Source of the DNA: Spongospora subterranea f. sp. subterranea
Lineage: Eukaryota
Assembly (NCBI GenBank): GCA_049724395.1
Contig: JAUGWO010000070.1
Location: 1-64,000, forward strand
Direction of reading: 5' to 3'
DNA length: 64,000 nucleotides
A model generated the notes under the pieces. The model was not told the DNA's origin and made no database searches. It saw only the letters and a list, made by a program, of their open reading frames with translations. Below, in pieces: positions 13,234 through 30,600 of the stretch (its first letter is position 1; each line of letters opens with the position of its first letter). The position numbers and the translations under genes were made by a program.

Positions 13234-15324
13234 CAACAATCAAATCGATCTCAAAGAAGTAGCAAAGGACATTAAAACCAGATGCAAATTAATGAGAGGG
13301 CTACGAAAATATGGAATTCCAGTTTCGACCTTTCAAAAAATATGTCGAGGATTCATAGGCGGAAAACTCAATTACTACCTGCCATGGCTTGCAGCGGAAA
13401 TACACCAAACCATGAAGACCACTCTGAACCCGATGGAAATTGCATATAGAGACTATATGAGAACATTATACAGGATGTTTCCCATCGACACCAATCCCAT
13501 TATTACATGCGATATCACGATTCCCATTATTAAAGGATAGAATAATCACAGAGACAACAATGACAGTACTTTCAGCACAGGCAAATGGCACATTATTAGG
13601 AAGTGAATATGCTGCCTGGAATGGAGATGGCGATGGATGGACCCCATTAGGGGAGGTATGGAAAGCACTCAAAGAGAGAGTACCTGACACATATGATGCA
13701 GTTCATACTAGGACTGATATACCAGCACGAATATTGGAGGGATTATATAAGGTCAAATACCATTCCTCAAATAGGGAAAAAGCAATCAAAAAACACAAAA
13801 AAGGAAAGCTATTGCCGACAAACCCAGATATCGAACTATGGACAGATGGGAGTTTTAATAAGGATGTTGGCGGAGGAGCGGCAGCTCTGCTAATTGATTA
13901 TACAAATAGAGATGAAAAAGGCGAGACCAACGAAGAGATACTTACCGTTAAACTAGGAACAGAAGTGACATCATCATATGAATGTGAGATTATTGCACTG
14001 AATAGTGGACTAGATATAGCTGTAGACCAGAACTATGAGGGAAGACATATCCACATAATGACAGATTCCTTATCATGGATGAGTCAACTACAATCCTTAC
14101 CGATAAAACCAAGGAGAGTGAACGCTATCGTTGCGGAATGTGCAGATAAATTAGCGAAATTAACAAAAGAAAACATGGTGGATATACACTTTATACCAAA
14201 TCACGTGGAAAACGACAACAATAATGAAGACGAGATGAAAGTCCCCATAGGACACAGCGATGACATTGATCAACTAGCAAAGCAAGCATCGATGGACGGC
14301 GATGAAATTCAACATGACCCATTTATATCATCGTTCAAACTGCATCTTAAGAAAAGAGAGAGAGAAAACCTTAAAGATTACATCAAAGAACGAGTTCAAG
14401 CTAGCAGATTCAAAGGATACCCAGAAAGGGATAAATTTAAGATATTAATGACGCTAAACGAAAGGAAGATTGAACCTACAACCCCGCTTCTCAACAGAGC
14501 AAGAACTGGGCACTCTTGTGCAAGAAATCACCTGAAGAACCTGAATATGGATGACAGTAACATATGCAGATGGTGTAATACGGAAATAGAGACGATTGAA
14601 CATCAGGTGTTACACTGCAAGGCGTTACAAGGAAAGTTGAGTAAAGTCAGGAAAGTGTACAAAGGTTTGAACACCTCATCATTTGAAAATGCACTGTGGG
14701 AATACCCGCAAGAAATGAACAGGATCCTAAGAAGGGCAGTGAAAAAGAGGTGCTACATCTAGAACCACAGGAACCCGAATCCGAATACACGAGCAGAAAA
14801 TGCACTGTGGGAATACCCGCAAGAAATGAACAGGATCCTAAGAAGGGCAGACGGCGATCGAGACAGTGAGAGAGAGGAGGCAGCCTAGATAAATATTTTC
14901 CGAAGAGGAGTAAAACCTCGATAAAAAATCAGCTACCTAACCGTAGCGAAGAGGTGCTACCTCTCTAAATACAGGCCGAAGAGGAGGACAACCTCTATGC
15001 AAAAACCGAGCTGTCTAGTAAGGATGCGACCTGGTTAGGCCAAAGGGTGTTCCTTAGGGAATTTTTAGTGTCCCGGATACAGAGTTTTCCGGGTACGTTT
15101 TTTAGTTGGGACGGTTCAATATGTAGGACTATTCTAACCCCACACTACCCTTTGCGTCGACCAAAATGCTGAACTACCGGCGAAGGTCTATTTATCGGGT
15201 GCGAGCCTGATACTGGGAGGAGCTTCTGAGACGCGAGTCGAAGAAACGAATCTTGGCCCAATAGCCGTGGGACCGGCCGACCTGCATGAAAAGTGCAAAC
15301 TCAATCACAAAAAAAAAAAAAAAA
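13234..15324 (+). mobile_element. 3' part of the LINE (RNase H, C-terminal Zn finger, 3' UTR, poly-A); inverted duplicate of 25795-27890
   Basis: WTDGS RNase H motif, CRWC...HQVLHC, poly-A at 15309-15324 followed by the same flank (CACGAACTACTG) as the mirror copy. Confidence 0.92.
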
Positions 15325-16430
15325 CACGAACTACTGCTTTTGTCCGTTTGGGCTGATTCTTCATTGCTTTTTCATAAATGTCCTGCAATGGTAAAATCAA
15401 TTTGTTATTCTCTGGAATCGACCTATTCATCCATTGTATAGCCATCATGAATTGCTGCAAATCCCTAGCCGTTTTCGGATGTGGCATTTTATTGAGAGCC
15501 GATATCCTCCCTGGATCATGACTGACTCCATCTGGTGTGAAGATGCGGCCACAGAATTTGGCTTCCCTCAAGAACAAATCACATCGTTTAACATTGAACT
15601 TGATGTTTTTTTGTTCCGCCAATCTCAATGTCCCCTGCAGTGCTTCAAACCATTTGTCCTCAGTTTCCGCATGACCTAAAATATCGTCAATCCCGATGAT
15701 TAACGACTTGTACAGTAATTCCTCAAATATTTCATGCATCCTAGCCTGAGACTGAGTAGATGAAATCAATGCTCCTTAAATCGAACGTGTTGGAATGTAA
15801 ACTCCACGATCGGTCATGAATGAACTCATCTCCTGACACTCCTGGTCAAGTGGCATAATCCAAAATCCCTTGAACGCATCTAATGAAAACCAATACTTAG
15901 ACCCTGCTAAGTATCTAACAATGGATTCCAAGAATGGCATTGGCCATGCTGTGGCCTTGCATAATGCATTGACTTCCCTGAGATCAACACACATTCTGTA
16001 TCCTCGTTTCCCTGGTTTTCTGACAACTACCACCGGCGAAGCCCACTCCGCATTGTAGTTCTCATACACCAATCCATATTTGACCAACAACTTAACAAAA
16101 GTGTCAGAAATTCATTCTGTTCTGTGTTGTATCTCCTAGCTTTGCACCTGACTGGTTCCACATTATCCTTCAAGCATGTCTTGAAAGGTGTCACCTTAGC
16201 TGGTTCATCATTACCTAATGATGCCCTCCACACATTACCGTATGTATGGACCAATTTCCTTAGTCGACTTTCTCAATGATGTGGTAATCCATTTTGTATA
16301 GCGCGCTCAACCAAACCATTCATTGCACCTCGCAATTCCTCTGGAATATTTTCCCTAATATTCACATCCTCATCAGAAACTTCCAGATCCTAATTTCCCA
16401 ATCTTGTCCTCAAGATTAAATGCTCTAGGG
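15325..16430 (-). mobile_element. Gypsy pol (RT) fragment, mirror copy of 24690-25794
   Basis: WASPVVVVRK, YRMCVDLR, SLDAFKGFW and GIDDILG motifs. Confidence 0.9.
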
Positions 16431-16473
16431 CTGTTTTTCTAAACGGTGGCAAGGTGGCTGGCCGTCACGGACC

Positions 16474-16533
16474 ATACCAACTGAACGAGGCGTTAATATT
16501 ACAACGCCTCGTTGGTATATTGGTACTTGGTAT
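16474..16533 (+). promoter_or_regulatory. Rolling-circle replication origin: stem-loop with nonanucleotide TAATATTAC and flanking iterons
   Basis: AACGAGGCGT(16484-16493)-TAATATTAC(16494-16502)-A-ACGCCTCGTT(16504-16513). TTGGTAY at 16512, 16520 and 16527; inverted copy ATACCAA at 16474. Confidence 0.88.
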
Positions 16534-16773
16534 CCACGCAGTTTGTCCCAGAGGTACTGTACCAACGGACCGAACGCCTCGTCGGTATATAGGTACTTGG
16601 TATCCACGCAGTTTGTCACAGAGGTACCAACGGACCGATGGTGGGTACCATTTGACCGGCGGTACCAACCGACCGACGCGTGGGCCGCGCCGACTGTTAT
16701 GCGACGGACTGCGCGTCACACTGCGGCTATCATAATCGTTTTGGTGGTGGGCGTTTCGCGTCGTCGTTTGGAG

Positions 16774-16871
16774 ATGCCGAGAAGGAAAGGGCCGCCTTCA
16801 GCCACAACCGGCGTTACGGCGGAGCTCGGCAGGTTGGGCTCCGATTCGCAGAAGCGAACACGCGGCCGCCG
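16774..16871 (+). pseudogene. rep: Rep 5' fragment, variant A (MPRRKGPPSATTGVTAELGRLGSDSQKR)
   Basis: Homologous to the N-terminus of variants B and C and lies downstream of the intact origin. Further copies occur near 17060-17165(-), 18600-18935 and 23955-24345. Confidence 0.7.
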
Positions 16872-17400
16872 TCACAGAGGTACCAACGGACCGATGGTGG
16901 GTACCATCTGACCTGCGGTACCAACCGACCGGCGCGTCCCAAAACGATTATGATAGCCGCAGTGTGACGCGCAGTCCGTCACATAACAGTCAGCGCGGCC
17001 CGCGCCGATCGATTGGTACCGCCGGTCAGATGGTACCCACCATCGGTCCGTTGGTACCTCTGTGACGGCGGCCGCGTGTTCGCTTCTGCGAATCGGAGCC
17101 CAACCTGCCGAGCTCCGCCGTAACGCCGGTTGTGGCTGAAGGCGGCCCTTTCCTTCTCGGCATCTCCAAACGACGACGCGAAACGCAACGCCTCGTTGGT
17201 ACATTGGTACTTGGTATGCGGCCACGGAGTTGTCACAGAGGTACCAACGTACCAACTGACCGGTTCCGGGTACCAACCCACCGGGCTACCTACCGACAGG
17301 TGCGCAGCCCACACCGAGTCTTAAGTCACGGACTGCTCGTCACAACTTTCATTATCATATTGGTCGTGCCGTTATCGTTCGTATTCGTGCTGCTGCTGGG

Positions 17401-17835
17401 ATGCGACATAGGAAGGGGCAGGGTCCACGATCGGCGACCACAGGTGTCACAGCTGAGATCGCGCGGTTGGGGTCTGGCTCCCGCCAGCGGCGCGGCGCCA
17501 ACCGCCGACGCAAACCGCCAGCCGCCCCTCGATCCCGGTTCATTGATGACGAAGCCGGTTGCTCTTCGGAATCGACAGACGAAGCTACTCTATCGGAAGG
17601 CGGCAATGGAGTGGCATCGGGTACCGCCGATACGTTAAATGCCCCAGCAATCGCACCCGCCGATCCAGATACGTATATTCCGGCGGTTCTGTCGCCCGAG
17701 GATCAACTCACGCTCGAAGCGATGACCAGGCAGCCGACCCATGGGTTCGTATTCCGCGGCACCCATCTATTTGCAACATGGCCGCAGTGTACCACTCAAC
17801 CGTCGTAAGTACCAACCGACCGTACCCCAGGTACC
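17401..17835 (+). pseudogene. rep: Rep 5' fragment, variant B (exon 1 with motif I, and the start of the intron)
   Basis: 135-aa ORF ending GFVFRGTHLFATWPQCTTQPS, followed by a GTAAGT donor. Confidence 0.8.
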
Positions 17836-18381
17836 GTCACGATGATTCTCCTGTTTGACAACGGCTGCGCTCAACGTCATCGGGAAACAGTTTCCAAAGT
17901 TGGTCGATGACGAAACTGTGGCAACGAATTAGGGTCTCGCTCGGTTGGTACCTGGGGTACGGTCGGTTGGTACTTACGACGGTTGAGTGGTACACTGCGG
18001 CCATGTTGCAAATAGATGGGTGCCGCGGAATACGAACCCATGGGTCGGCTGCCTGGTCATCGCTTCGAGCGTGAGTTGATCCTCGGGCGACAGAACCGCC
18101 GGAATATACGTATCTGGATCGGCGGGTGCGATTGCTGGGGCATTTAACGTATCGGCGGTACCCGATGCCACTCCATTGCCGCCTTCCGATAGAGTAGCTT
18201 CGTCTGTCGATTCCGAAGAGCAACCGGCTTCGTCATCAATGAACCGGGATCGAGGGGCGGCTGGCGGTTTGCGTCGGCGGTTGGCGCCGCGCCGCTGGCG
18301 GGAGCCAGACCCCAACCGCGCGATCTCAGCTGTGACACCTGTGGTCGCCGATCGTGGACCCTGCCCCTTCCTATGTCGCAT
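17830..18381 (-). pseudogene. rep: Longest Rep fragment, variant B: exon 1, 62-nt intron (17977-17916), exon 2 up to ...ENHRDGT
   Basis: GTAAGT donor, CTAAT branch point (17932-17928) and CAG acceptor. Spliced product is LFATWPQCTTQPSFVIDQLWKLFPDDVE / (frameshift) AAVVKQENHRDGT, aligning with geminivirus Rep FLTYPQC...ELHEDGxPHLH. Confidence 0.82.
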
Positions 18382-19201
18382 CCCAGCAGCAGCACGAATA
18401 CGAACGATAACGGCACGACCAATATGATAATGAAAGTTGTGACGAGCAGTCCGTGACTTAAGACTCGGTGTGGGCTGCGCACCTGTCGGTAGGTAGCCCG
18501 GTGGGTTGGTACCCGGAACCGGTCAGTTGGTACGTTGGTACCTCTGTGACAACTCCGTGGCCGCATACCAAGTACCAATGTACCAACGAGGCGTTGTCGG
18601 CAGGTTGGGCTCCGATTCGCAGAAGCGAACACGCGGCCGCCGTCACAGAGGTACCAACGGACCGATGGTGGGTACCATCTGACCTGCGGTACCAACCGAC
18701 CGGCGCGTCCCAAAACGATTATGATAGCCGCAGTGTGACGCGTAGTCCGTCACATAACAGTCAGCGCGGCCCGCGCCGATCGATTGGTACCGCCGGTCAG
18801 ATGGTACCCACCATCGGTCCGTTGGTACCTCTGTGACGGCGGCCGCGTGTTCGCTTCTGCGAATCGGAGCCCAACCTGCCGAGCTCCGCCGTAACGCCGG
18901 TTGTGGCTGAAGGCGGCCCTTTCCTTCTCGGCATCTCCAAACGACGACGCGAAACGCCCAACGATTATGATAGCCGCAGTGTGACGCGCAGTCCGTCACA
19001 TAACAGTCGGCGCGGCCCACGCGTCGGTCGGTTGGTACCGCCGGTCAAATGGTACCCACCATCGGTCCGTTGGTACCTCTGTGACAAACTGCGTGGATAC
19101 CAAGTACCTATATACCGACGAGGCGTTCGGTCCGTTGGCACAGTACCTCTGGGACAAACTGCGTGGATACCATGTACCAATATACCAACGAGGCGTTGTA
19201 A

Positions 19202-19854
19202 GGTCCACCATCGGCGACAACAGGTGTGACCGAGGAGATCGCGCGGTTGGGGTCTGCCTCCCGCCAGCGCCGCCGTGGTAACCGCCGACGCAAACCGCCA
19301 GCCAAATGTCGATCCCGCTTCATTGACGACGAAGCCGGCTGCTCTTCCGATTCGGCAGACGACGCTACGATTTCGGACGCCGACAATGTTTTGGGATCGG
19401 GTACCGGCGAATCGCTAACTGCCCCTGTAATCGCACCCGCCGATCCAGATAAATATATTCCCGCGGTTCTGTCGCCCGAAGATCAACTGACGCTGGAAGC
19501 GATGACCAGGCAACCGGTCCATCATCGGGAAACAGTTTCCAGAGTTCGTCGATGACGAAACTGTGGCAACAAATTAGTGTACCGTTCGGTTGGTACCTTG
19601 GTAACGGTCGGTTGGTACTTTTTAAGCGAATCGGCGGTACCCGATGCCAATCCATTGTCGCCGTCCGATATAGTAGCGTCGTCTGCCGAATCGGAAGAGC
19701 AGCCGGCTTCGTCGTCAATGAAGCGGGATCGACATTTGGCTGGCGGTTTGCGTCGGCGGTTACCGCGGCGGCGCTGGCGGGAGGCAGACCCCAACCGCGC
19801 GATCTCCTCGGTCACACCTGTTGTCGCCGATGGTGGACCCTTTCTGCGTCGCAT
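19202..19854. pseudogene. rep: Rep 5' fragments, variant C, in two opposite orientations (19202-19520 +, 19523-19854 -); mirror copy at 23037-23370 +
   Basis: MRRRKGPPSATTGVTEEIARLGSASRQRRRGNRRRKPPAKCRSRFIDDEAGC..., plus a diverged copy of the intron 3' end and exon 2 (SFVIDELWKLFPDD). Confidence 0.75.
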
Positions 19855-19975
19855 CTCACCGGCGGCACGAACACAAACGACGACGGCACGACCAATATGA
19901 TTATGGAAGCTGTGACGAGCAGTCCGTGACATAAGACTTGGGGTGGGCCGCGCACCAGTGGGTTGGTACCCCGGT

Positions 19976-21575
19976 TGTTGAATACAACTTGCCAGCCTCC
20001 AGTACGGACATTCTCCAAGAAAGGTGCGTACCCCAGTCGGCGCAACCACGGCAAATGCATAACATAAGAGTGACTGTGCGGACTTTGTATTTGGATTATG
20101 CCGTGCACTCCCCCCTATATTCTCCCACCTATACATGCTATAACCACGCAGTAATAAACCTCATTCTACTATTACCTTCACATCGGAGACATCGATTTCC
20201 TTTAGATTAACAGTCGAATTGCCACCTCATCAGGCCCTTACGTATACACTTCAGTGTATCTTCTCACCACTGCACACATACACCTCAGTGTATATTTCTA
20301 CCAGCTTGTACATACACCTTAGTGTATCTTTTTCACCACTGCATACATACACCTCAGTGTATATTTCTACCAGTTCATACGTACACTTTAGTGTATATTT
20401 CTCGTTATTCCCACACTTTCTCTTCTCCGCACCTCTACTTCAACTTCAGTTGCGATGAAAGAAATTTTTCAGACGATTCCAAAGTTCTCCGGCAAAGACA
20501 CCGATGACCTGTTACTATGGCAACAAAAGGTAGTGATGTATCTATCGACAAAGGATCTGGAATTATGCGTTGAGAAAGACCCTGATGCTAACGCGACTCC
20601 GGACCAACTACGCAAAGACAAGAAAGCTAAGTCCATTTTATGCAGCTGCATTGATGACGTGATTGTCGGCGCAATAATGAAGGAAACAACGGCACGCAAG
20701 GCGTGGGCGCGCTTCTTGAAAGCCTTTACCGCAAGAAATCACGATCCACCAGAACCAGACTCATCGCCGAGTTTTGGAACTGCACAAAGAATGACGCCCC
20801 GATGGCCACTTACATTGCCACCCTTCAAGTTTTACAGTCAAAGCTCCGCGCTATCGGAAAGGATATGACAGATGAAGACATGACTGATCGCCTACTATCA
20901 GGCCTCCCATCTTGTTTTGACGCATTCACCGTCACGTTGGATACACTCAGCGAAGTCAAGTTTGCCGCTACTGCCGCGTCGCTCATCAATTTTGAAGCCC
21001 AACTCGAGCACAGGTCTCGTGAAGATGTCGGCAGTTTCCATCCTGCCTCGAGCATGCGCTACCTCAGTCAAACGGCATTCTCGCTGCAGCTATCACAACT
21101 CCAACTCGCATGACAATGCCCACTGCTGGGCACAACATCCCGAGCTACGTCCGAAACATTTATTCACTAAACAGTCTGCCTCAGTCTATCCCCTCCAACG
21201 ATCAAAAGTAGCTCCACTCTCCCAACAATCAGCTCATGAACACAGTGACGAATGGCTTCTTGACTGTTGCTGCTCAATGCACATGTGTCCGAATCCTCTA
21301 CCTTGCAGGAAGTTCTGCCCGACTCCGATCCCGTGACAGTTACTATGGCAAATAATGAGAGTCTTTGCTCAACTGCAACCGGCAGCAGCAAATGCAACCG
21401 GCAGCAGCAAAATAGGCACTGGAAATACCATCATCGATATTTCACCGGTATTACACATACCCGGTCTTTCCAATAATCTTCTCTCCATTGGACAAGCAAC
21501 TTCGGACGGACTATCGTTTTTGTTCAAGGGAGACTACTGCAAAATATTCAACATCGACGGTAAACTTGTCGGCAA
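19976..21575 (+). mobile_element. Copia element 2, 5' part (LTR, leader, gag, zinc knuckle, protease), truncated
   Basis: Candidate LTR TGTTG...TTAACA at 19976-20212 with AATAAA; tandemly repetitive leader ~20240-20400; gag from 20455, CSYHNSNSHDNAHC knuckle, WLLDCCCSMHM protease, LSNNLLSIGQ. Confidence 0.85.
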
Positions 21576-22915
21576 AGGTAGAGGATTCGGGACACATGTG
21601 CATTGAGCAGCAACAGTCAAGAAGCCATTCGTCACTGTGTTCATGAGCTGATTGTTGGGAGAGTGGAGCTACTTTTGATCGTTGGAGGGGATAGACTGAG
21701 GCAGACTGTTTAGTGAATAAATGTTTCGGACGTAGCTCGGGATGTTGTGCCCAGCAGTGGGCATTGTCATGCGAGTTGGAGTTGTGATAGCTGCAGCGAG
21801 AATGCCGTTTGACTGAGGTAGCGCATGCTCGAGGCAGGATGGAAACTGCCGACACTTCACGAGACCTGTGCTCGAGTTGGGCTTCAAAATTGATGAGCGA
21901 CGCGGCAGTAGCGGCAAACTTGACTTCGCTGAGTGTATCCAACGTGACGGTGAATGCGTCAAAACAAGATGGGAGGCCTGATAGTAGGCGATCAGTCATG
22001 TCTTCATCTGTCATATCCTTTCCGATAGCGCGGAGCTTTGACTGTAAAACTTGAAGGGTGGCAATGTAAGTGGCCATCGGGGCGTCATTCTTTGTGCAGT
22101 TCCAAAACTCGGCGATGAGTCTGGTTCTGGTGGATCGTGATTTCTTGCGGTAAAGGCTTTCAAGAAGCGCCCACGCCTTGTGTGCCGTTGTTTCCTTCAT
22201 TATTGCGCCGACAATCACGTCATCAATGCAGCTGCATAAAATGGACTTAGCTTTCTTGTCTTTGCGTAGTTGGTCCGGAGTCGCGTTAGCATCAGGGTCT
22301 TTCTCAACGCATAATTCCAGATCCTTTGTCGATAGATACATCACTACCTTTTGTTGCCATAGTAACAGGTCATCGGTGTCTTTGCCGGAGAACTTTGGAA
22401 TCGTCTGAAAAATTTCTTTCATCGCAACTGAAGTTGAAGTAGAGGTGCGGAGAAGAGAAAGTGTGGGAATAACGAGAAATGTACACTAAAGTGTACGTAT
22501 GAACTGGTAGAAAATATACACTGAGGTGTATGTATGCAGTGGTGAAAAAGATACACTAAGGTGTATGTACAAGCTGGTAGAAATATACACTGAGGTGTAT
22601 GTGTGCAGTGGTGAGAAGATACACTGAAGTGTATACGTAGGGGCCTGATGAGGTGGCAATTCGACTGTTAATCTAAAGGAAATCGATGTCTCCGATGTGA
22701 AGGTAATAGTAGAATGAGGTTTATTACTGCGTGGTTATAGCATGTATAGGTGGGAGAATAGTATAGGGGGGAGTGCACTAATAATCCAAATGACAAGCCG
22801 GTTGCTCTTCGCACAGTCACTCTTATGTTATGCATTTGCCGTGGTTGCGCCGACTGGGGGTACGCACCTTTCTTGGAGAATGTCCGTACTGGAGGCTGGC
22901 AAGTTGTATTCAACA
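21576..22915 (-). mobile_element. Fold-back (inverted) copy of Copia element 2
   Basis: Mirror of 19976-21304; gag ORF 21511-22422(-); LTR at 22666-22915. Confidence 0.88.
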
Positions 22916-23371
22916 ACCGGGGTACCAACCCACTGGTGCGCGGCCCACCCCAAGTCTTATGTCACGGACTGCTCGTCACAGCTTCCATAATCATATTGGT
23001 CGTGCCGTCGTCGTTTGTGTTCGTGCCGCCGGTGAGATGCGACGCAGAAAGGGTCCACCATCGGCGACAACAGGTGTGACCGAGGAGATCGCGCGGTTGG
23101 GGTCTGCCTCCCGCCAGCGCCGCCGCGGTAACCGCCGACGCAAACCGCCAGCCAAATGTCGATCCCGCTTCATTGACGACGAAGCCGGCTGCTCTTCCGA
23201 TTCGGCAGAGCGACGCTACTATATCGGACGGCGACAATGGATTGGATCGGGTACCGCCGATTCGCTTAAAAAGTACCAACCGACCGTTACCAAGGTACCA
23301 ACCGAACGGTACACTAATTTGTTGCCACAGTTTCGTCATCGACGAACTCTGGAAACTGTTTCCCGATGATG

Positions 23372-23712
23372 TGACCGGCTGCCTGGTCATCGCTTCGAGC
23401 GTCAGTTGATCCTCGGGCGACAGAACCGCCGGAATATACGTATCTGGATCGGCGGGTGCGATTGCTGGGGCATTTAACGATATCGGCGGTACCCGATGCC
23501 ACTCCATTGCCGGCGTCCGATAGAGTAGCGTCGTCTGTCGATTCCGAAGAGCAACCGGCTTCGTCATCAATGAACCGGGATCGAGGGGCGGCTGGCGGTT
23601 TGCGTCGGCGGTTGGCGCGGCGCCGCTGGCGGGAGCCAGACCCCAACCGCGCGATCTCAGCTGTGACACCTGTGGTCGCCGATCGTGGACCCTGCCCCTT
23701 CCTATGTCGCAT
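23372..23712 (-). pseudogene. rep: Rep 5' fragment, variant B, third copy (truncated before motif I)
   Basis: MRHRKGQGPRSATTG...FIDDEAGC...LEAMTRQP, with one frameshift. Confidence 0.72.
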
Positions 23713-24585
23713 CCCAGCAGCAGCACGAATACGAACGATAACGGCACGACCAATATGATAATGAAAGTTGTGACGAGCAGTCCGTGACTTAAGACTCGGT
23801 GTGGGCTGCGCACCTGATCGGTAGGTAGCCCGGTGGGCGGTACCCGGAACCGGTCAGTTGGCGTTGGTACCGCTGTGACAACTCCGTGGCCGACATACCA
23901 AGTCACAATGTACCATCGAATCGTTGCGTTGGGCGTTTCGCGTCGTCGTTTGGAGATGCCGAGAAGGAAAGGGCCGCCTTCAGCCACAACCGGCGTTACG
24001 GCGGAGCTCGGCAGGTTGGGCTCCGATTCGCAGAAGCGAACACGCGGCCGCCGTCACAGAGGTACCAACGGACCGATGGTGGGTACCATCTGACCGGCGG
24101 TACCAATCGATCGGCGCGGGCCGCGCTGACTGTTATGTGACGGACTACGCGTCACACTGCGGCTATCATAATCGTTTTGGGACGCGCCGGTCGGTTGGTA
24201 CCGCAGGTCAGATGGTACCCACCATCGGTCCGTTGGTACCTCTGTGACGGCGGCCGCGTGTTCGCTTCTGCGAATCGGAGCCCAACCTGCCGAGCTCCGC
24301 CGTAACGCCGGTTGTGGCTGAAGGCGGCCCTTTCCTTCTCGGCATCTCCAAACGACGACGCGAAACGCCCACCACCAAAACGATTATGATAGCCGCAGTG
24401 TGACGCGCAGTCCGTCGCATAACAGTCGGCGCGGCCCACGCGTCGGTCGGTTGGTACCGCCGGTCAAATGGTACCCACCATCGGTCCGTTGGTACCTCTG
24501 TGACAAACTGCGTGGATACCAAGTACCTATATACCGACGAGGCGTTCGGTCCGTTGGTACAGTACCTCTGGGACAAACTGCGTGG

Positions 24586-24645
24586 ATACCAAGTACCAAT
24601 ATACCAACGAGGCGTTGTAATATTAACGCCTCGTTCAGTTGGTAT
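24586..24645 (-). promoter_or_regulatory. Second (mirror) copy of the TAATATTAC origin hairpin
   Basis: Stem-loop at 24606-24635; nonamer on the minus strand at 24625-24617. Confidence 0.88.
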
Positions 24646-24689
24646 GGTCCGTGACGGCCAGCCACCTTGCCACCGTTTAGAAAAACAGC

Positions 24690-27600
24690 CCTAGAGCATT
24701 TAATCTTGAGGACAAGATTGGGAAATTAGGATCTGGAAGTTTCTGATGAGGATGTGAATATTAGGGAAAATATTCCAGAGGAATTGCGAGGTGCAATGAA
24801 TGGTTTGGTTGAGCGCGCTATACAAAATGGATTACCACATCATTGAGAAAGTCGACTAAGGAAATTGGTCCATACATACGGTAATGTGTGGAGGGCATCA
24901 TTAGGTAATGATGAACCAGCTAAGGTGACACCTTTCAAGACATGCTTGAAGGATAATGTGGAACCAGTCAGGTGCAAAGCTAGGAGATACAACACAGAAC
25001 AGAATGAATTTCTGACACTTTTGTTAAGTTGTTGGTCAAATATGGATTGGTGTATGAGAACTACAATGCGGAGTGGGCTTCGCCGGTGGTAGTTGTCAGA
25101 AAACCAGGGAAACGAGGATACAGAATGTGTGTTGATCTCAGGGAAGTCAATGCATTATGCAAGGCCACAGCATGGCCAATGCCATTCTTGGAATCCATTG
25201 TTAGATACTTAGCAGGGTCTAAGTATTGGTTTTCATTAGATGCGTTCAAGGGATTTTGGATTATGCCACTTGACCAGGAGTGTCAGGAGATGAGTTCATT
25301 CATGACCGATCGTGGAGTTTACATTCCAACACGTTCGATTTAAGGAGCATTGATTTCATCTACTCAGTCTCAGGCTAGGATGCATGAAATATTTGAGGAA
25401 TTACTGTACAAGTCGTTAATCATCGGGATTGACGATATTTTAGGTCATGCGGAAACTGAGGACAAATGGTTTGAAGCACTGCAGGGGACATTGAGATTGG
25501 CGGAACAAAAAAACATCAAGTTCAATGTTAAACGATGTGATTTGTTCTTGAGGGAAGCCAAATTCTGTGGCCGCATCTTCACACCAGATGGAGTCAGTCA
25601 TGATCCAGGGAGGATATCGGCTCTCAATAAAATGCCACATCCGAAAACGGCTAGGGATTTGCAGCAATTCATGATGGCTATACAATGGATGAATAGGTCG
25701 ATTCCAGAGAATAACAAATTGATTTTACCATTGCAGGACATTTATGAAAAAGCAATGAAGAATCAGCCCAAACGGACAAAAGCAGTAGTTCGTGTTTTTT
25801 TTTTTTTTTGTGATTGAGTTTGCACTTTTCATGCAGGTCGGCCGGTCCCACGGCTATTGGGCCAAGATTCGTTTCTTCGACTCGCGTCTCAGAAGCTCCT
25901 CCCAGTATCAGGCTCGCACCCGATAAATAGACCTTCGCCGGTAGTTCAGCATTTTGGTCGACGCAAAGGGTAGTGTGGGGTTAGAATAGTCCTACATATT
26001 CCGTCCCAACTAAAAAACGTACCCGGAAAACTCTGTATCCGGGACACTAAAAATTCCCTAAGGAACACCCTTTGGCCTAACCAGGTCGCATCCTTACTAG
26101 ACAGCTCGGTTTTTGCATAGAGGTTGTCCATGTATTCCTTCCTCTTCGGCCTGTATTTAGAGAGGTAGCACCTCTTCGCTACGGTTAGGTAGCTGATTTT
26201 TTATCGAGGTTTTACTCCTCTTCGGAAAATATTTATCTAGGCTGCCTCCTCTCTCTCACTGTCTCGATCGCCGTCTGCCCTTCTTAGGATCCTGTTCATT
26301 TCTTGCGGGTATTCCCACAGTGCATTTTCTGCTCGTGTATTCGGATTCGGGTTCCTGTGGTTCTAGATGTAGCACCTCTTTTTCACTGCCCTTCTTAGGA
26401 TCCTGTTCATTTCTTGCGGGTATTCCCACAGTGCATTTTCAAATGATGAGGTGTTCAAACCTTTGTACACTTTCCTGACTTTACTCAACTTTCCTTGTAA
26501 CGCCTTGCAGTGTAACACCTGATGTTCAATCGTCTCTATTTCCGTATTACACCATCTGCATATGTTACTGTCATCCATATTCAGGTTCTTCAGGTGATTT
26601 CTTGCACAAGAGTGCCCAGTTCTTGCTCTGTTGAGAAGCGGGGTTGTAGGTTCAATCTTCCTTTCGTTTAGCGTCATTAATATCTTAAATTTATCCCTTT
26701 CTGGGTATCCTTTGAATCTGCTAGCTTGAACTCGTTCTTTGATGTAATCTTTAAGGTTTTCTCTCTCTCTTTTCTTAAGATGCAGTTTGAACGATGATAT
26801 AAATGGGTCATGTTGAATTTCATCGCCGTCCATCGATGCTTGCTTTGCTAGTTGATCAATGTCATCGCTGTGTCCTATGGGGACTTTCATCTCGTCTTCA
26901 TTATTGTTGTCGTTTTCCACGTGATTTGGTATAAAGTGTATATCCACCATGTTTTCTTTTGTTAATTTCGCTAATTTATCTGCACATTCCGCAACGATAG
27001 CGTTCACTCTCCTTGGTTTTATCGGTAAGGATTGTAGTTGACTCATCCATGATAAGGAATCTGTCATTATGTGGATATGTCTTCCCTCATAGTTCTGGTC
27101 TACAGCTATATCTAGTCCACTATTCAGTGCAATAATCTCACATTCATATGATGATGTCACTTCTGTTCCTAGTTTAACGGTAAGTATCTCTTCGTTGGTC
27201 TCGCCTTTTTCATCTCTATTTGTATAATCAATTAGCAGAGCTGCCGCTCCTCCGCCAACATCCTTATTAAAACTCCCATCTGTCCATAGTTCGATATCTG
27301 GGTTTGTCGGCAATAGCTTTCCTTTTTTGTGTTTTTTGATTGCTTTTTCCCTATTTGAGGAATGGTATTTGACCTTATATAATCCCTCCAATATTCGTGC
27401 TGGTATATCAGTCCTAGTATGAACTGCATCATATGTGTCAGGTACTCTCTCTTTGAGTGCTTTCCATACCTCCCCTAATGGGGTCCATCCATCGCCATCT
27501 CCATTCCAGGCAGCATATTCACTTCCTAATAATGTGCCATTTGCCTGTGCTGAAAGTACTGTCATTGTTGTCTCTGTGATTATTCTATCCTTTAATAATG

Positions 27601-30600
27601 GGAATCGTGATATCGCATGTAATAATGGGATTGGTGTCGATGGGAAACATCCTGTATATGTTCTCATATAGTCTCTATATGCAATTTCCATCGGGTTCAG
27701 AGTGGTCTTCATGGTTTGGTGTATTTCCGCTGCAAGCCATGGCAGGTAGTAATTGAGTTTTCCGCCTATGAATCCTCGACATATTTTTTGAAAGGTCGAA
27801 ACTGGAATTCCATATTTTCGTAGCCCTCTCATTAATTTGCATCTGGTTTTAATGTCCTTTGCTACTTCTTTGAGATCGATTTGATTGTTGAGTGGTGATT
27901 CTCATCATTTGCTCTTAAGGTTGCCCCTAAATACTTGATTGTGTCTGTTGTTTTGATTTTATGCTCGTTGACAGTTATTTGGTCTCTATGAGCATGTTCA
28001 TTGAATAATAAGTGGGTTTTCAGCCATTGTATCTTAATGTGGTTTGCTGTGCACCAGCTTTGCAGCTTTGAACTCTCTGCCCTCAGTTGATTTTTTACTT
28101 CCCATTTGGTTGAATCTGTTGCCCATTGTGTGGTATCATCTACATAAACATTACTATTGACCGTTTCTATTGGTGCATCGTAGATATATATAATCCATAA
28201 TAAGACGCTAATACTGGATCCTTGAGGGATTCCGTTCTCTTGATAATGCGGCTCTGTAATATTTTTCCTGTGGCACACGTGGAATATTCGCTTTGTCAAC
28301 CATTGGTCGATCAATAATATTAGGTATGAGTCTATTCCCATATTTCTCATCTTTCGTACTAGTAGTGTTCTCTGTACTCTGTCAAAGGCTTTCATAAAGT
28401 CATATACAATTAGGGCGAATTGTTGTTCTTTAGCAGCTGCTAATCCTGCATTATGCAGCAATCTTAACAATGCATGCGTAGTACTATGAGCGGGTCTGCA
28501 CCCGAATTGGTTATCAGGTATGTGCTTTTCCGCTTGGTGTCTTATTCTGTGTTCAATAATCCCTTCTACCAGTTTGGCTATATTAGGCAATAATGATATC
28601 GGTCTATATTCACCTGGTTTATCTTTAGGTAATGGTCTGATTTTCGCTATTTTCATATCTTGTGGGAAGTATCCTAAATCTATAATATCGTTATTAATTG
28701 AATTCAGCAACGCGTATTTGTTCATATCATTTTTGCATAATTCTTTGATGAGACTATTCGGTATTCCATCAATTCCTCCTGCTGATTTCCTATTGGCCTT
28801 AACAACTGCCCTTTCTAGCTCTCTCAAAGTAATCTTTTCCGGTGGTTGAGAGATTCTCTCTTTCCATAGTTTTTCAATGAGTAGATCGGAACCGCTGTTC
28901 ACGCTGTTCATGCTCATTGAGGTTAAGGTCTGCTTCGCTGTAGATTGCCTCAAAACTGTCAGCTATTTTTTCCGCTTCATCTTTTGCATCAACTTTCTGT
29001 GTTTCGTACTTTCGTCTCCGTTTGTTGGTTTGAGGACTTATCTTCTTTACCAGGCTCCATATTTTGGCTCCTGTTTCGTCCATACATGCCTGTTTAACTT
29101 CCGTTCTAAGGCTTGCATTTTTCGCTTTCTGAAATTGTTTCCTCAATGATATTTCCGCTTTTCGCATTTCGGTGTGCTGCCGTGCAATAAATTGCTGGCT
29201 TTTGCATTTCAGTATGGCTTCCTGGTGTTTGCGCTTGAGTTTATTTCGCAAGTTTAACGCAATTTTGAGTTTCGTGGTCCAGAATTTGCATCTATTCTGT
29301 CTAACATATTTGTGCTTAATGCTATTTTGCAATAGGTCAATGAAAGCTGTTAGTCCCATGTTCTTGCTTTCAACATTCTGCAGTTCCTCTTCTAACGCTT
29401 TCGTTGTCGCTCGTGTGTCAATTCGTTGTATTCTTTTACGGCTAGGGGGAATCCTTTGCGTCGATTTTCTTCTAATTGTAGTATCTATTGTTGTCGGTGA
29501 ATGGTCACTGCCTAGCTCTGCGTGCACGTCCCATTGTAAGATCTCCTTTGCCATCTGTCGATTGGCAATGGTGATATCTAATGAGTTGTTTCCTCTTGTT
29601 GGGCGTTCCGGGTTGTTCATCAATTTGCATTCTTCCAATATGCTGTCTAGGTATTTGTGAGTTTCGTCATGGTGGATTCCAAACCGTCTATCTTTGGTGT
29701 TGAGGTCACCTGTTAGAAGTATCGGTTCATCTCGCATTTCTACGAATTTGCCGATTTGTTTCCAATATGTTTTTCTAGTATTTCGATCTATATCCGGTGG
29801 TATATATATGTGAATTAATATCATTTCACTATATATTTTTACTATTTGTGTCATGATTCCGTCGTTCCCAAACGTTTGTATTGCAGGAATGCGCATCACA
29901 TCTACATTTACATGGTCCCTCCAAAAAATTCCAGCTTGGGTGTACCGGTCATCGGCTTCGTGGTTTGGGAAATCGTCTATTTGGCGTCTATGGTGAAGTT
30001 CTGATATACATATTACATCGACGCGGTTGGTGTTAGCAAATCGAGACAGTTCTTTTGATTTTTGTTCGCTTAGGGAGCAGGCGTTCCATTGAGCGATTTT
30101 TAAGCTCCTGGTTGTTCTTATTTTTCTGGTTTTGGTATTGGTTTTCATGAAATATTGAGTTATTTTCATCTGCCGTTTGTGTGTTTTAGTTCCGTTCAGG
30201 TTTTTGTCCGATGTGTCTGCTATATTGTCTTCCTTGTTGTCTGGTTCTAGTATATTTCCGATCAATTTGTTGAGTTCGTAGTGGCTCATCTGGCTTGTTG
30301 GTGTCTGTTTTGAGGCTGTTTTTCGCGCTGTTTCATTGTCTGCAACTTCTTTGCATTGGCGCTCGCTGTTGGTAAGCCGTCTTTTATACTGCGTTTCAGT
30401 GCCGTCCTTATCTATCAGCAATGTTCGCTTTTTTGTGCAGATTTGTTTAGAGTGCGTTTGATGTTTTTCATATTTGGCACGTTGAGTGGGTTGGTCGTCG
30501 GAATCGTCGCATGATCGGTGCCTTTTCGGATTTATGTTTTTATCGTGTCTCATCGTTTTGTCTAGCGATGGTTTTATCATAAATTGCTGTTTGGAATTAT

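What the first reader, a model, noticed from the sequence alone, without database searches (positions are those of the whole stretch)
17830..18381. Rep gene with a spliceosomal intron between HUH motif I and motif II
The ORF track stops at ...WPQCTTQPS*, but that stop lies inside a GTAAGT donor. A 62-nt intron (17977-17916) with CTAAT branch point and CAG acceptor restores SFVIDQLWKLFPDDVE, and one frameshift later AAVVKQENHRDGT, the expected lead-in to PHLH. Variant C (19523-19620, 23270-23370) keeps CTAAT and CAG while the intron body diverges and the exon changes are conservative or synonymous (CAA CTT to GAA CTC, GAC to GAT). Known mastrevirus and genomovirus Rep introns lie downstream of the nuclease domain, so this position is different. 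Intron size matches host introns in this window.
Basis: partly seen in the sequence, partly recalled or inferred. Interest (0 to 1): 0.85.

Follow-up and report, generated by a model that had tools for sequence, protein, structure and literature searches.

The report
Intron in fossil ssDNA virus Rep
A scrambled, truncated remnant of a small circular DNA virus in a protist genome (probably a plasmodiophorid plant parasite) has a 62-base insert, very likely an intron, early in its replication gene, and that insert carries two conserved copies of the repeat found at the virus's replication origin.

Summary
The intron holds up. 17977-17916 (- strand) reads GTAAGT...CTAAT...CAG. The single hit among 1.84 billion proteins is a Spongospora subterranea Rep-like protein that aligns without a gap to the spliced reading. 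Homology alone picks a 62-nt excision; this is the only GT..AG one among the best placements (0 of 20,000 shuffles give such signals). No RNA contig spans the junction, so splicing is inferred.

The gene is dead here: it folds back just before the HUH histidines. It lies in a rearranged array of three virus variants with a TAATATTAC origin hairpin, and several joints sit within about 3 nt of the predicted nick site. An independent DNA run shows the same joints and lacks the frameshift.

Corrections: variant C has lost the donor; the intron as a whole is not more diverged than exon 2 (p 0.31); cycloviruses already have introns inside the nuclease domain.

New: the intron holds two copies of the origin repeat, unchanged between variants (0 of 22 vs 8 of 28 elsewhere, p 0.006). 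All 49 free viral relatives fetched are unbroken at this place. A new variant of known things.

The parts
16484..16513 (+). Origin hairpin with TAATATTAC in the loop (16494-16502); predicted nick between 16500 and 16501
   Evidence: DNA fold; nick position from established knowledge of CRESS origins
16501..16871 (+). Variant D unit: leader with GTACCAAC repeats, then the first ~33 codons of a Rep N-terminus from ATG 16774
17186..17835 (+). Perfect inverted copy of the variant B 5' half (leader, exon 1, first 31 nt of the intron)
   Evidence: fold-back joint also in DNA run X2
17836..17915 (-). Variant B exon 2 stub: helix region and lead-in to motif II; one-base break near 17867 not shown by run X2; cut by the fold-back before the HUH histidines
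17916..17977 (-). 62-nt predicted spliceosomal intron (GTAAGT / CTAAT / CAG) holding two GTACCAAC origin-repeat copies
17978..18381 (-). Variant B exon 1: basic then acidic N-terminal extension (~115 aa) and motif I (LFATWPQC)
   Evidence: dN/dS 0.44 against variant C
18382..18597 (-). Variant B leader, beginning at the predicted nick-site AC, with four GTACCAAC copies (3 on this strand, 1 on the other)
18597..19199 (.). Rearranged variant D leader pieces with internal fold-backs; 19199 end begins within 2 nt of the predicted nick site
19202..19522 (+). Variant C exon 1 part (107 codons, open), inverted
19522..19620 (-). Variant C intron remnant (19620-19561, donor GT lost) and exon 2 stub (19560-19522)
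19621..19975 (-). Variant C leader part and first 77 codons of exon 1, ending in a deletion joint
22916..24635 (.). Mirror copies of C, B and D pieces and of the origin hairpin (TAATATTAC 24617-24625, minus), part of the large inverted duplication 13234-27890

Best explanation
[quoted passage not shown] In that virus Rep lay on the virion strand about 215 nt after a TAATATTAC hairpin (shown). Splicing would have been required for any nicking activity, since the unspliced RNA stops inside the donor and gives a 135-residue product with motif I only (reading shown, splicing inferred). The intron contains two copies of the GTACCAAC origin repeat, unchanged between variants (shown); these are likely Rep-binding iterons (inferred). 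Origin-plus-5'-Rep fragments of at least three variants were joined, probably by Rep nicking and rejoining at the origin and by fold-back template switches at short palindromes such as GGTACC, and the array became fixed in the host (joints shown in several independent runs; mechanism inferred). No copy in the window can make an active Rep.
For: Single hit of a phmmer search of 1.84 billion proteins, P0012 = CRZ00739.1 of Spongospora subterranea, Pfam Gemini_AL1 E 2.5e-4, below the curated cut-off; Atlas features and structure give Cressdnaviricota Rep clusters. Spliced reading vs P0012: 71 columns, no gap, identities 25 of 43 in exon 1, 8 of 15 and 8 of 11 in the two exon 2 pieces. Of 1,481 open trial excisions the seven best are all 62 nt, and of the 11 within 6 points of the best only 17977-17916 is GT..AG. 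Splice-signal combination in 0 of 20,000 shuffles. Profile of 10 free Reps: spliced 33.2 bits, intron retained 21.8, exon 1 alone 17.5. B vs C exon 1 dN/dS 0.44, p 0.009: the variants diverged under selection, and both hold the intron's 3' 60 nt, so it predates their split. Repeat cores 0 of 22 changed vs 8 of 28 in the remaining intron, p 0.006; 0 of 20 and p 0.014 without the donor overlap. GTACCAAC: 35 of 35 window copies in the array; in B leader 4, intron 2, exons 0 in 484 nt. Free relatives L001 and L003 have the same layout of hairpin then Rep on one strand. Joints at 17185, 18597, 19199 within about 3 nt of the predicted nick; two more partners at 18597 in X2 and X3. Four window joints present in DNA run X2, one of them also in X5 and X7. 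One oligo-dT RNA contig (X7) ends exactly at C's acceptor, 19560 (weak hint, one study).
Against: No spliced junction in any of the 7 runs laid, of 13 listed; none of the RNA or possibly-RNA contigs covered B's junction, and X5 and X6 (probably one data set) run unspliced through C's intron remnant. Only one complete intron copy is seen; C's donor is deleted. The gene behind P0012 was not available, so the intron is not shown in a second intact gene. All 49 free viral relatives fetched are unbroken here, and 0 of 79 metagenome and 0 of 7 viral pattern loci gave an intron-bearing relative. Part of the donor (AAGT) overlaps the repeat, so the donor is less independent than it looks. The repeat-core test rests on one pair of sequences and 8 changes.
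Confidence: 0.75

Rival explanations
1. The 62 nt is not an intron but a piece of origin-repeat DNA inserted into the Rep gene by the same rearrangements that scrambled the array; the splice-like ends are coincidence.
For: The insert shares a 14-nt exact match with variant D's leader and holds two repeat copies; the array is full of joints at GTACC words; no spliced RNA seen.
Against: Ends fall exactly at GT and AG with no exon base lost or duplicated against P0012; branch point plus acceptor are not part of the repeat; combination in 0 of 20,000 shuffles. The 3' 28 nt have no match in the leaders. The insert is shared by B and C, which diverged under purifying selection on Rep, which a disabling insert would not allow.
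Confidence: 0.07
2. The intron is real but was gained after integration, in a host-domesticated Rep gene family; B, C, D and P0012 are host paralogs rather than virus strains.
For: Intron size fits the host group (about 60 bp mean in Plasmodiophora, PMC4471660); P0012 comes from a Spongospora protein set and three Viral_Rep models are listed for its transcriptome; no capsid found in the window; no free relative has the intron.
Against: An intact origin hairpin and repeat-rich leader are attached to each variant; all window copies are truncated; the intron is G+C 56% and repeat-built, unlike the A+T-rich candidate host introns.
Confidence: 0.1
3. The element is a capsid-less rolling-circle mobile element (a Rep-only transposon or satellite) whose 5' end at the nick site is joined to new targets, and the array is a nest of its non-autonomous derivatives.
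For: Five different partners joined at or beside the predicted nick site; no capsid or helicase in the window; P0012 shows no helicase motifs after about residue 255.
Against: Nearest relatives by sequence, structure and layout are capsid-encoding CRESS genomes; origin-plus-truncated-Rep repeats are also what geminivirus-related DNA in Nicotiana looks like (PMC5014472); no dispersed family could be tested without the genome.
Confidence: 0.08

Closest known systems
CRZ00739.1 / UniRef100_A0A0H5QYU1, Spongospora subterranea 'Geminivirus AL1 Rep catalytic domain-containing protein' (P0012)
   Same: Same lineage: 41 of 69 compared residues identical, gap-free across the splice junction, same 30-residue motif I to motif II spacing
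   Different: P0012 keeps motif II (WHLH) and motif III; its N-terminal extension differs; whether its gene has the intron is unknown
Unclassified environmental CRESS-DNA viruses with Gemini_AL1-type Rep (e.g. L001, L003, L096, L106)
   Same: TAATATTA-type hairpin, Rep on the same strand downstream of it and long acidic N-terminal extension in L001 and L003, FATWPQC-type motif I; L096 and L106 nearest to P0012 in a quick tree, support 88, long branch
   Different: All 49 loci have motif I and II in one open frame; they are whole genomes, with helicase and capsid where checked (L001, L003)
Cyclovirus Rep introns (Circoviridae)
   Same: Short GT-AG intron inside the nuclease domain, obligatory for a whole Rep: 56 nt in CN9E, about 100 nt after a 161-nt first exon in Mon-58 (PMC8622408, PMC8471302)
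   Different: CN9E's intron lies after motifs I and II; Mon-58's at codon 54 is, by my recall of cyclovirus Rep layout, at or just after motif II. Different Rep family. No origin repeats in the intron mentioned in the passages seen
Mastrevirus / genomovirus / crucivirus spliced Reps
   Same: Host spliceosome needed to make full Rep; unspliced RNA gives a shorter product (cruciviruses: PMC7468197; the others recalled)
   Different: Those introns lie between nuclease and helicase, so the unspliced product keeps the nuclease; here it would not
Geminivirus-related DNA (GRD) of Nicotiana, and draupnirvirus-like elements of Polymyxa betae
   Same: Clustered repeats of origin plus truncated rep (PMC5014472); CRESS elements already reported in a plasmodiophorid genome (PMC10193959)
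   Different: Here inverted and fold-back rather than direct repeats, Rep on the virion strand, several variants in one array, and an intron

Membership tests
U2-type spliceosomal intron | GT donor, branch point, YAG acceptor at a place where removal restores the protein | tested here: met
U2-type spliceosomal intron | Removed from RNA (junction reads) | tested here: inconclusive
   No contig across B's junction in 7 runs laid; X7 contig stops at C's acceptor; X5/X6 unspliced
U2-type spliceosomal intron | Splice signals conserved in homologous copies | tested here: inconclusive
   Branch and acceptor unchanged in C (0 of 12 signal positions vs 8 of 28, p 0.08), donor GT deleted
Cressdnaviricota Rep | RCR motif I and lead-in to motif II at normal spacing | tested here: met
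Cressdnaviricota Rep | HUH motif II and catalytic Tyr motif III | tested here: not met
   Window copies end before them; present in paralog P0012
Cressdnaviricota Rep | SF3 helicase domain | tested here: not met
   No hit in the window; not seen in P0012's C-terminal part
CRESS-DNA virus genome | Nonanucleotide in a stem-loop origin | tested here: met
   TAATATTAC hairpin at 16484-16513
CRESS-DNA virus genome | Capsid gene and circular ssDNA form | tested here: not met
   tblastn with two capsids (L001, L003) gave nothing under E 0.3 in the window; circular form not testable
Geminiviridae / Genomoviridae | Rep on the complementary strand relative to TAATATTAC (recalled) | tested here: not met
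   Rep is on the nonanucleotide strand, 216 nt after the nick; P0012 does not join the geminivirus-like rows in a quick tree (weak; row labels from recalled motifs)
Endogenous viral element | Joined to host DNA and shared among isolates | tested here: met
Rep iterons | Repeats flanking the origin that Rep binds | not testable with these tools
   Repeats cluster on both strands near the hairpin and in the intron; binding untested
Rolling-circle transposon (Helitron- or Replitron-like) | Dispersed copies with fixed ends and no capsid | not testable with these tools
   No genome held

The most novel reading that the evidence does not exclude
A CRESS-DNA virus lineage of plasmodiophorid protists made an intron out of its own origin repeats and put it between motif I and motif II, so that Rep binds inside its own gene and the splice decides between an active nuclease and a short catalytically dead N-terminal product: a self-regulating switch. 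Its fold-back remnants in the host are transcribed as hairpin RNA and may serve as antiviral memory.
Probability: 0.2. Interest if true: 0.8.

Novelty: new variant of a known kind. Interest (0 to 1): 0.52.

Why it matters
It ties an unclassified CRESS lineage to a probable host group, plasmodiophorids, for which no DNA virus turned up in my searches beyond Polymyxa elements of another family. It adds an intron position that makes all Rep activity depend on splicing. It also offers a small, testable case of how a compact virus can gain an intron: from origin-repeat DNA that is still conserved. Gene callers split such Reps, which may be why relatives are missing from protein databases.

Tried and rejected
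Whole-genome search: no genome held. Exon 1 alone found nothing in Pfam, viral contigs (22 pattern hits, 0 confirmed) or the word-indexed protein search. The exact origin hairpin is absent from viral contigs. A motif I plus donor pattern gave 7 viral loci, none a Rep. A motif I pattern gave 79 metagenome loci, none a Rep. P0012 found only itself in the 90% clusters, nothing in viral contigs as a single query and nothing in phages. Rfam gave no match.

Assembly artefact as the cause of the small fold-backs: rejected, the joints stand in run X2; the large 13-28 kb inverted duplication was not tested. Frameshift as real decay: not supported, X2 lacks it. 'Intron body diverges faster than exons' as a bulk test: not significant. 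L139 looked broken before motif II but is contiguous, the break being a contig-end repeat. Runs X8 and X9 laid nothing on variant C, which is no proof of absence. The careful tree did not finish; the quick tree leaves P0012 on a long branch and cannot assign a family.

Full report
Observation. On the minus strand an ATG at 18381 opens 404 nt that end in FRGTHLFATWPQCTTQP. The next 62 nt (17977-17916) begin GTAAGT, carry CTAAT 12 nt before the end and finish CAG. Downstream the frame reads FVIDQLWKLFPDDVE and, after a one-base break near 17867, AVVKQENHRDGT. The gene then stops: 17835-17186 is a perfect inverted copy of 17947-18596. The HUH histidines, the catalytic tyrosine, the helicase and a capsid are not in the window.

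Is it a Rep, and is the insert an intron? A motif I pattern in viral contigs gave 7 loci, of which 2 are 2.7-kb CRESS genomes (L001, L003) with Gemini_AL1 Reps. A profile of 10 such Reps scores the spliced reading 33.2 bits, the intron-retained reading 21.8 and exon 1 alone 17.5. A phmmer search of 1.84 billion proteins with the X read-through gave one hit, P0012, which its source names CRZ00739.1 of Spongospora subterranea. P0012 aligns to the spliced reading over 71 columns without a gap and continues into WHLH and a motif III tyrosine. Scoring all 1,481 open trial excisions against P0012, without regard to splice signals, puts seven 62-nt excisions on top; among the 11 within 6 points of the best, only 17977-17916 is GT..AG. 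Full splice signals at that length and place arose in 0 of 20,000 shuffles. The spacing from motif I to the motif II lead-in is 30 residues spliced and 51 unspliced. In 49 viral loci fetched with an alignment query the two motifs lie in one open frame in all 49: 44 measured by pattern at 28-37 (mode 30), 4 read by eye, 1 resolved separately. The S. subterranea proteins deposited with PMC4471660 come from a Trinity transcriptome (passages), and its supplement lists 3 Viral_Rep models (part 6 of file 1); that CRZ00739.1 belongs to that set is my recall.

RNA. Of 13 runs listed I laid 7, all as contigs. None joins the exons. No RNA contig covered B's junction. X5 and X6, probably one data set, read through C's intron remnant unspliced. 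The oligo-dT run X7 has one contig ending exactly at C's acceptor (19560), a weak hint from one study. Splicing is therefore inferred, not shown.

Its donor GT and motif I are removed by a deletion that run X2 also shows. Differences from B: intron 8 of 60, exon 2 2 of 39 (p 0.31), exon 1 50 of 321. Exon 1 does show selection for protein: dN/dS 0.44, p 0.009 in the Rep frame; the other same-strand frames give 1.9 and 1.3 with stops. Since B and C diverged under selection and both hold the intron's 3' 60 nt, the intron likely predates their split and was carried by the replicating element.

What the intron is made of. It holds two copies of GTACCAAC, a word found 35 times in the window, all 35 in the viral array. 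In unit B it occurs 4 times in the 216-nt leader, twice in the intron and never in 484 nt of exon. The word recurs on both strands in the leaders of all three variants. Between B and C the two 11-nt cores are unchanged (0 of 22) while the rest of the intron, splice signals aside, differs at 8 of 28 (p 0.006; p 0.014 without the donor overlap). That rate is close to the synonymous rate, 0.25. So the intron body does drift, except for the repeats. Repeats beside a CRESS origin are normally Rep-binding iterons (established knowledge); binding is untested here, and the test rests on one pair of sequences.

Surroundings. A hairpin with TAATATTAC lies at 16484-16513, with a mirror copy at 24617-24625. 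Rep follows on the same strand, as in L001 and L003 and unlike geminiviruses and genomoviruses (recalled). 16430-20000 is a patchwork of leader-plus-5'-Rep pieces of three variants, B, C and D. Three joints lie within about 3 nt of the predicted nick (17185, 18597, 19199), and runs X2 and X3 show two further partners there. The fold-back that cuts B uses a GGTACC shared by exon 2 and the intron. Four joints stand in DNA run X2, from a study other than the best holder's, and one also in X5 and X7, so the small rearrangements are genomic; X2 does not show the frameshift. Flanks are retrotransposon-like frames. G+C outside the arrays is 44.7%, near the 45.7% given for an S. subterranea assembly (PMC12883290, passages); candidate host introns read by eye are 47-77 nt, and Plasmodiophora introns average 60 bp. 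A plasmodiophorid host is likely but not shown (searches gave no name).

Mechanism, by step. Shown: origin, leader repeats, exon-intron layout, truncation, joints near the nick, their presence in other runs. Inferred: splicing by the host; obligatory splicing for nuclease activity, since the unspliced RNA stops in the donor after 135 codons; Rep binding to the intron repeats; Rep-driven joining at the nick and fold-back template switching; origin of the array from defective genomes of co-infecting variants.

Comparison with print. Cyclovirus Reps have short introns inside the nuclease domain: in CN9E the frame after a 56-nt intron lacks motifs I and II (PMC8622408, passages); in Mon-58 the first exon is 161 nt (PMC8471302, section 3.2 and supplement passage); 98- and 166-nt introns are reported without motif positions in the passages seen (PMC12481609, PMC3684831). 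Crucivirus introns mostly separate nuclease and helicase (PMC7468197, passages). Origin-plus-truncated-rep repeats are known from Nicotiana (PMC5014472, passages), CRESS elements from Polymyxa betae (PMC10193959, passages) and oomycetes (PMC13499601, passage). PMC3187698 (passages) covers host-virus recombination in general. Searches found no report of an intron between motif I and II, of origin repeats inside a Rep intron, or of this lineage in Spongospora; the library lacks most subscription papers and GenBank annotations were not surveyed, so this is limited. Two earlier notes of this scan describe short introns in endogenous Reps of other genomes (unchecked), which suggests such introns are not rare.

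Verdict. Real intron with about 90% likelihood; virus-borne about 75%. A new variant of known kinds: endogenous CRESS element plus spliced Rep. Interest 0.52, resting on the new host link, the early intron position and the conserved origin repeats in the intron.

Noticed in passing
window 13234-27890: Large inverted duplication, arms 99.1% identical over 4.5 kb, centred on a copia-like element and enclosing the viral array. Real or an assembly fold-back is open.
   Followed up: no
window 19202-19839: Variant C forms a 215-nt inverted repeat (95.8%) around the intron remnant; RNA or possibly-RNA contigs (X7, X5/X6) cross its fold-back joint, so hairpin RNA is possible.
   Followed up: partly
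window 18080-18370, run X2: Contigs with 13 and 9 other letters that are neither B nor C point to a fourth variant elsewhere in the genome.
   Followed up: no
window 18597, runs X2 and X3: Loose ends show other sequences joined at the predicted nick site, i.e. further insertions or rearrangements not in this window.
   Followed up: no
P0012 residues ~255-339: Similarity to Reps stops after the oligomerisation region and no helicase motifs follow; a frameshift or a second, retained intron in that protein model is possible.
   Followed up: no
window 45369-47579 (+): Single frame fusing N-terminal TPR repeats to an Hsp70 domain.
   Followed up: no
window 48.8-53.0 kb, 37.4-39.3 kb, 55.2-57.2 kb: Three tandem arrays: a purine-rich unit of about 50 nt with GC skew 0.75, a unit of about 85 nt, and a 56-nt unit with an inverted block.
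   Followed up: no
L001, L003: Complete 2.7-kb CRESS genomes; L001's capsid matches both satellite tobacco necrosis virus and geminivirus coat families.
   Followed up: no
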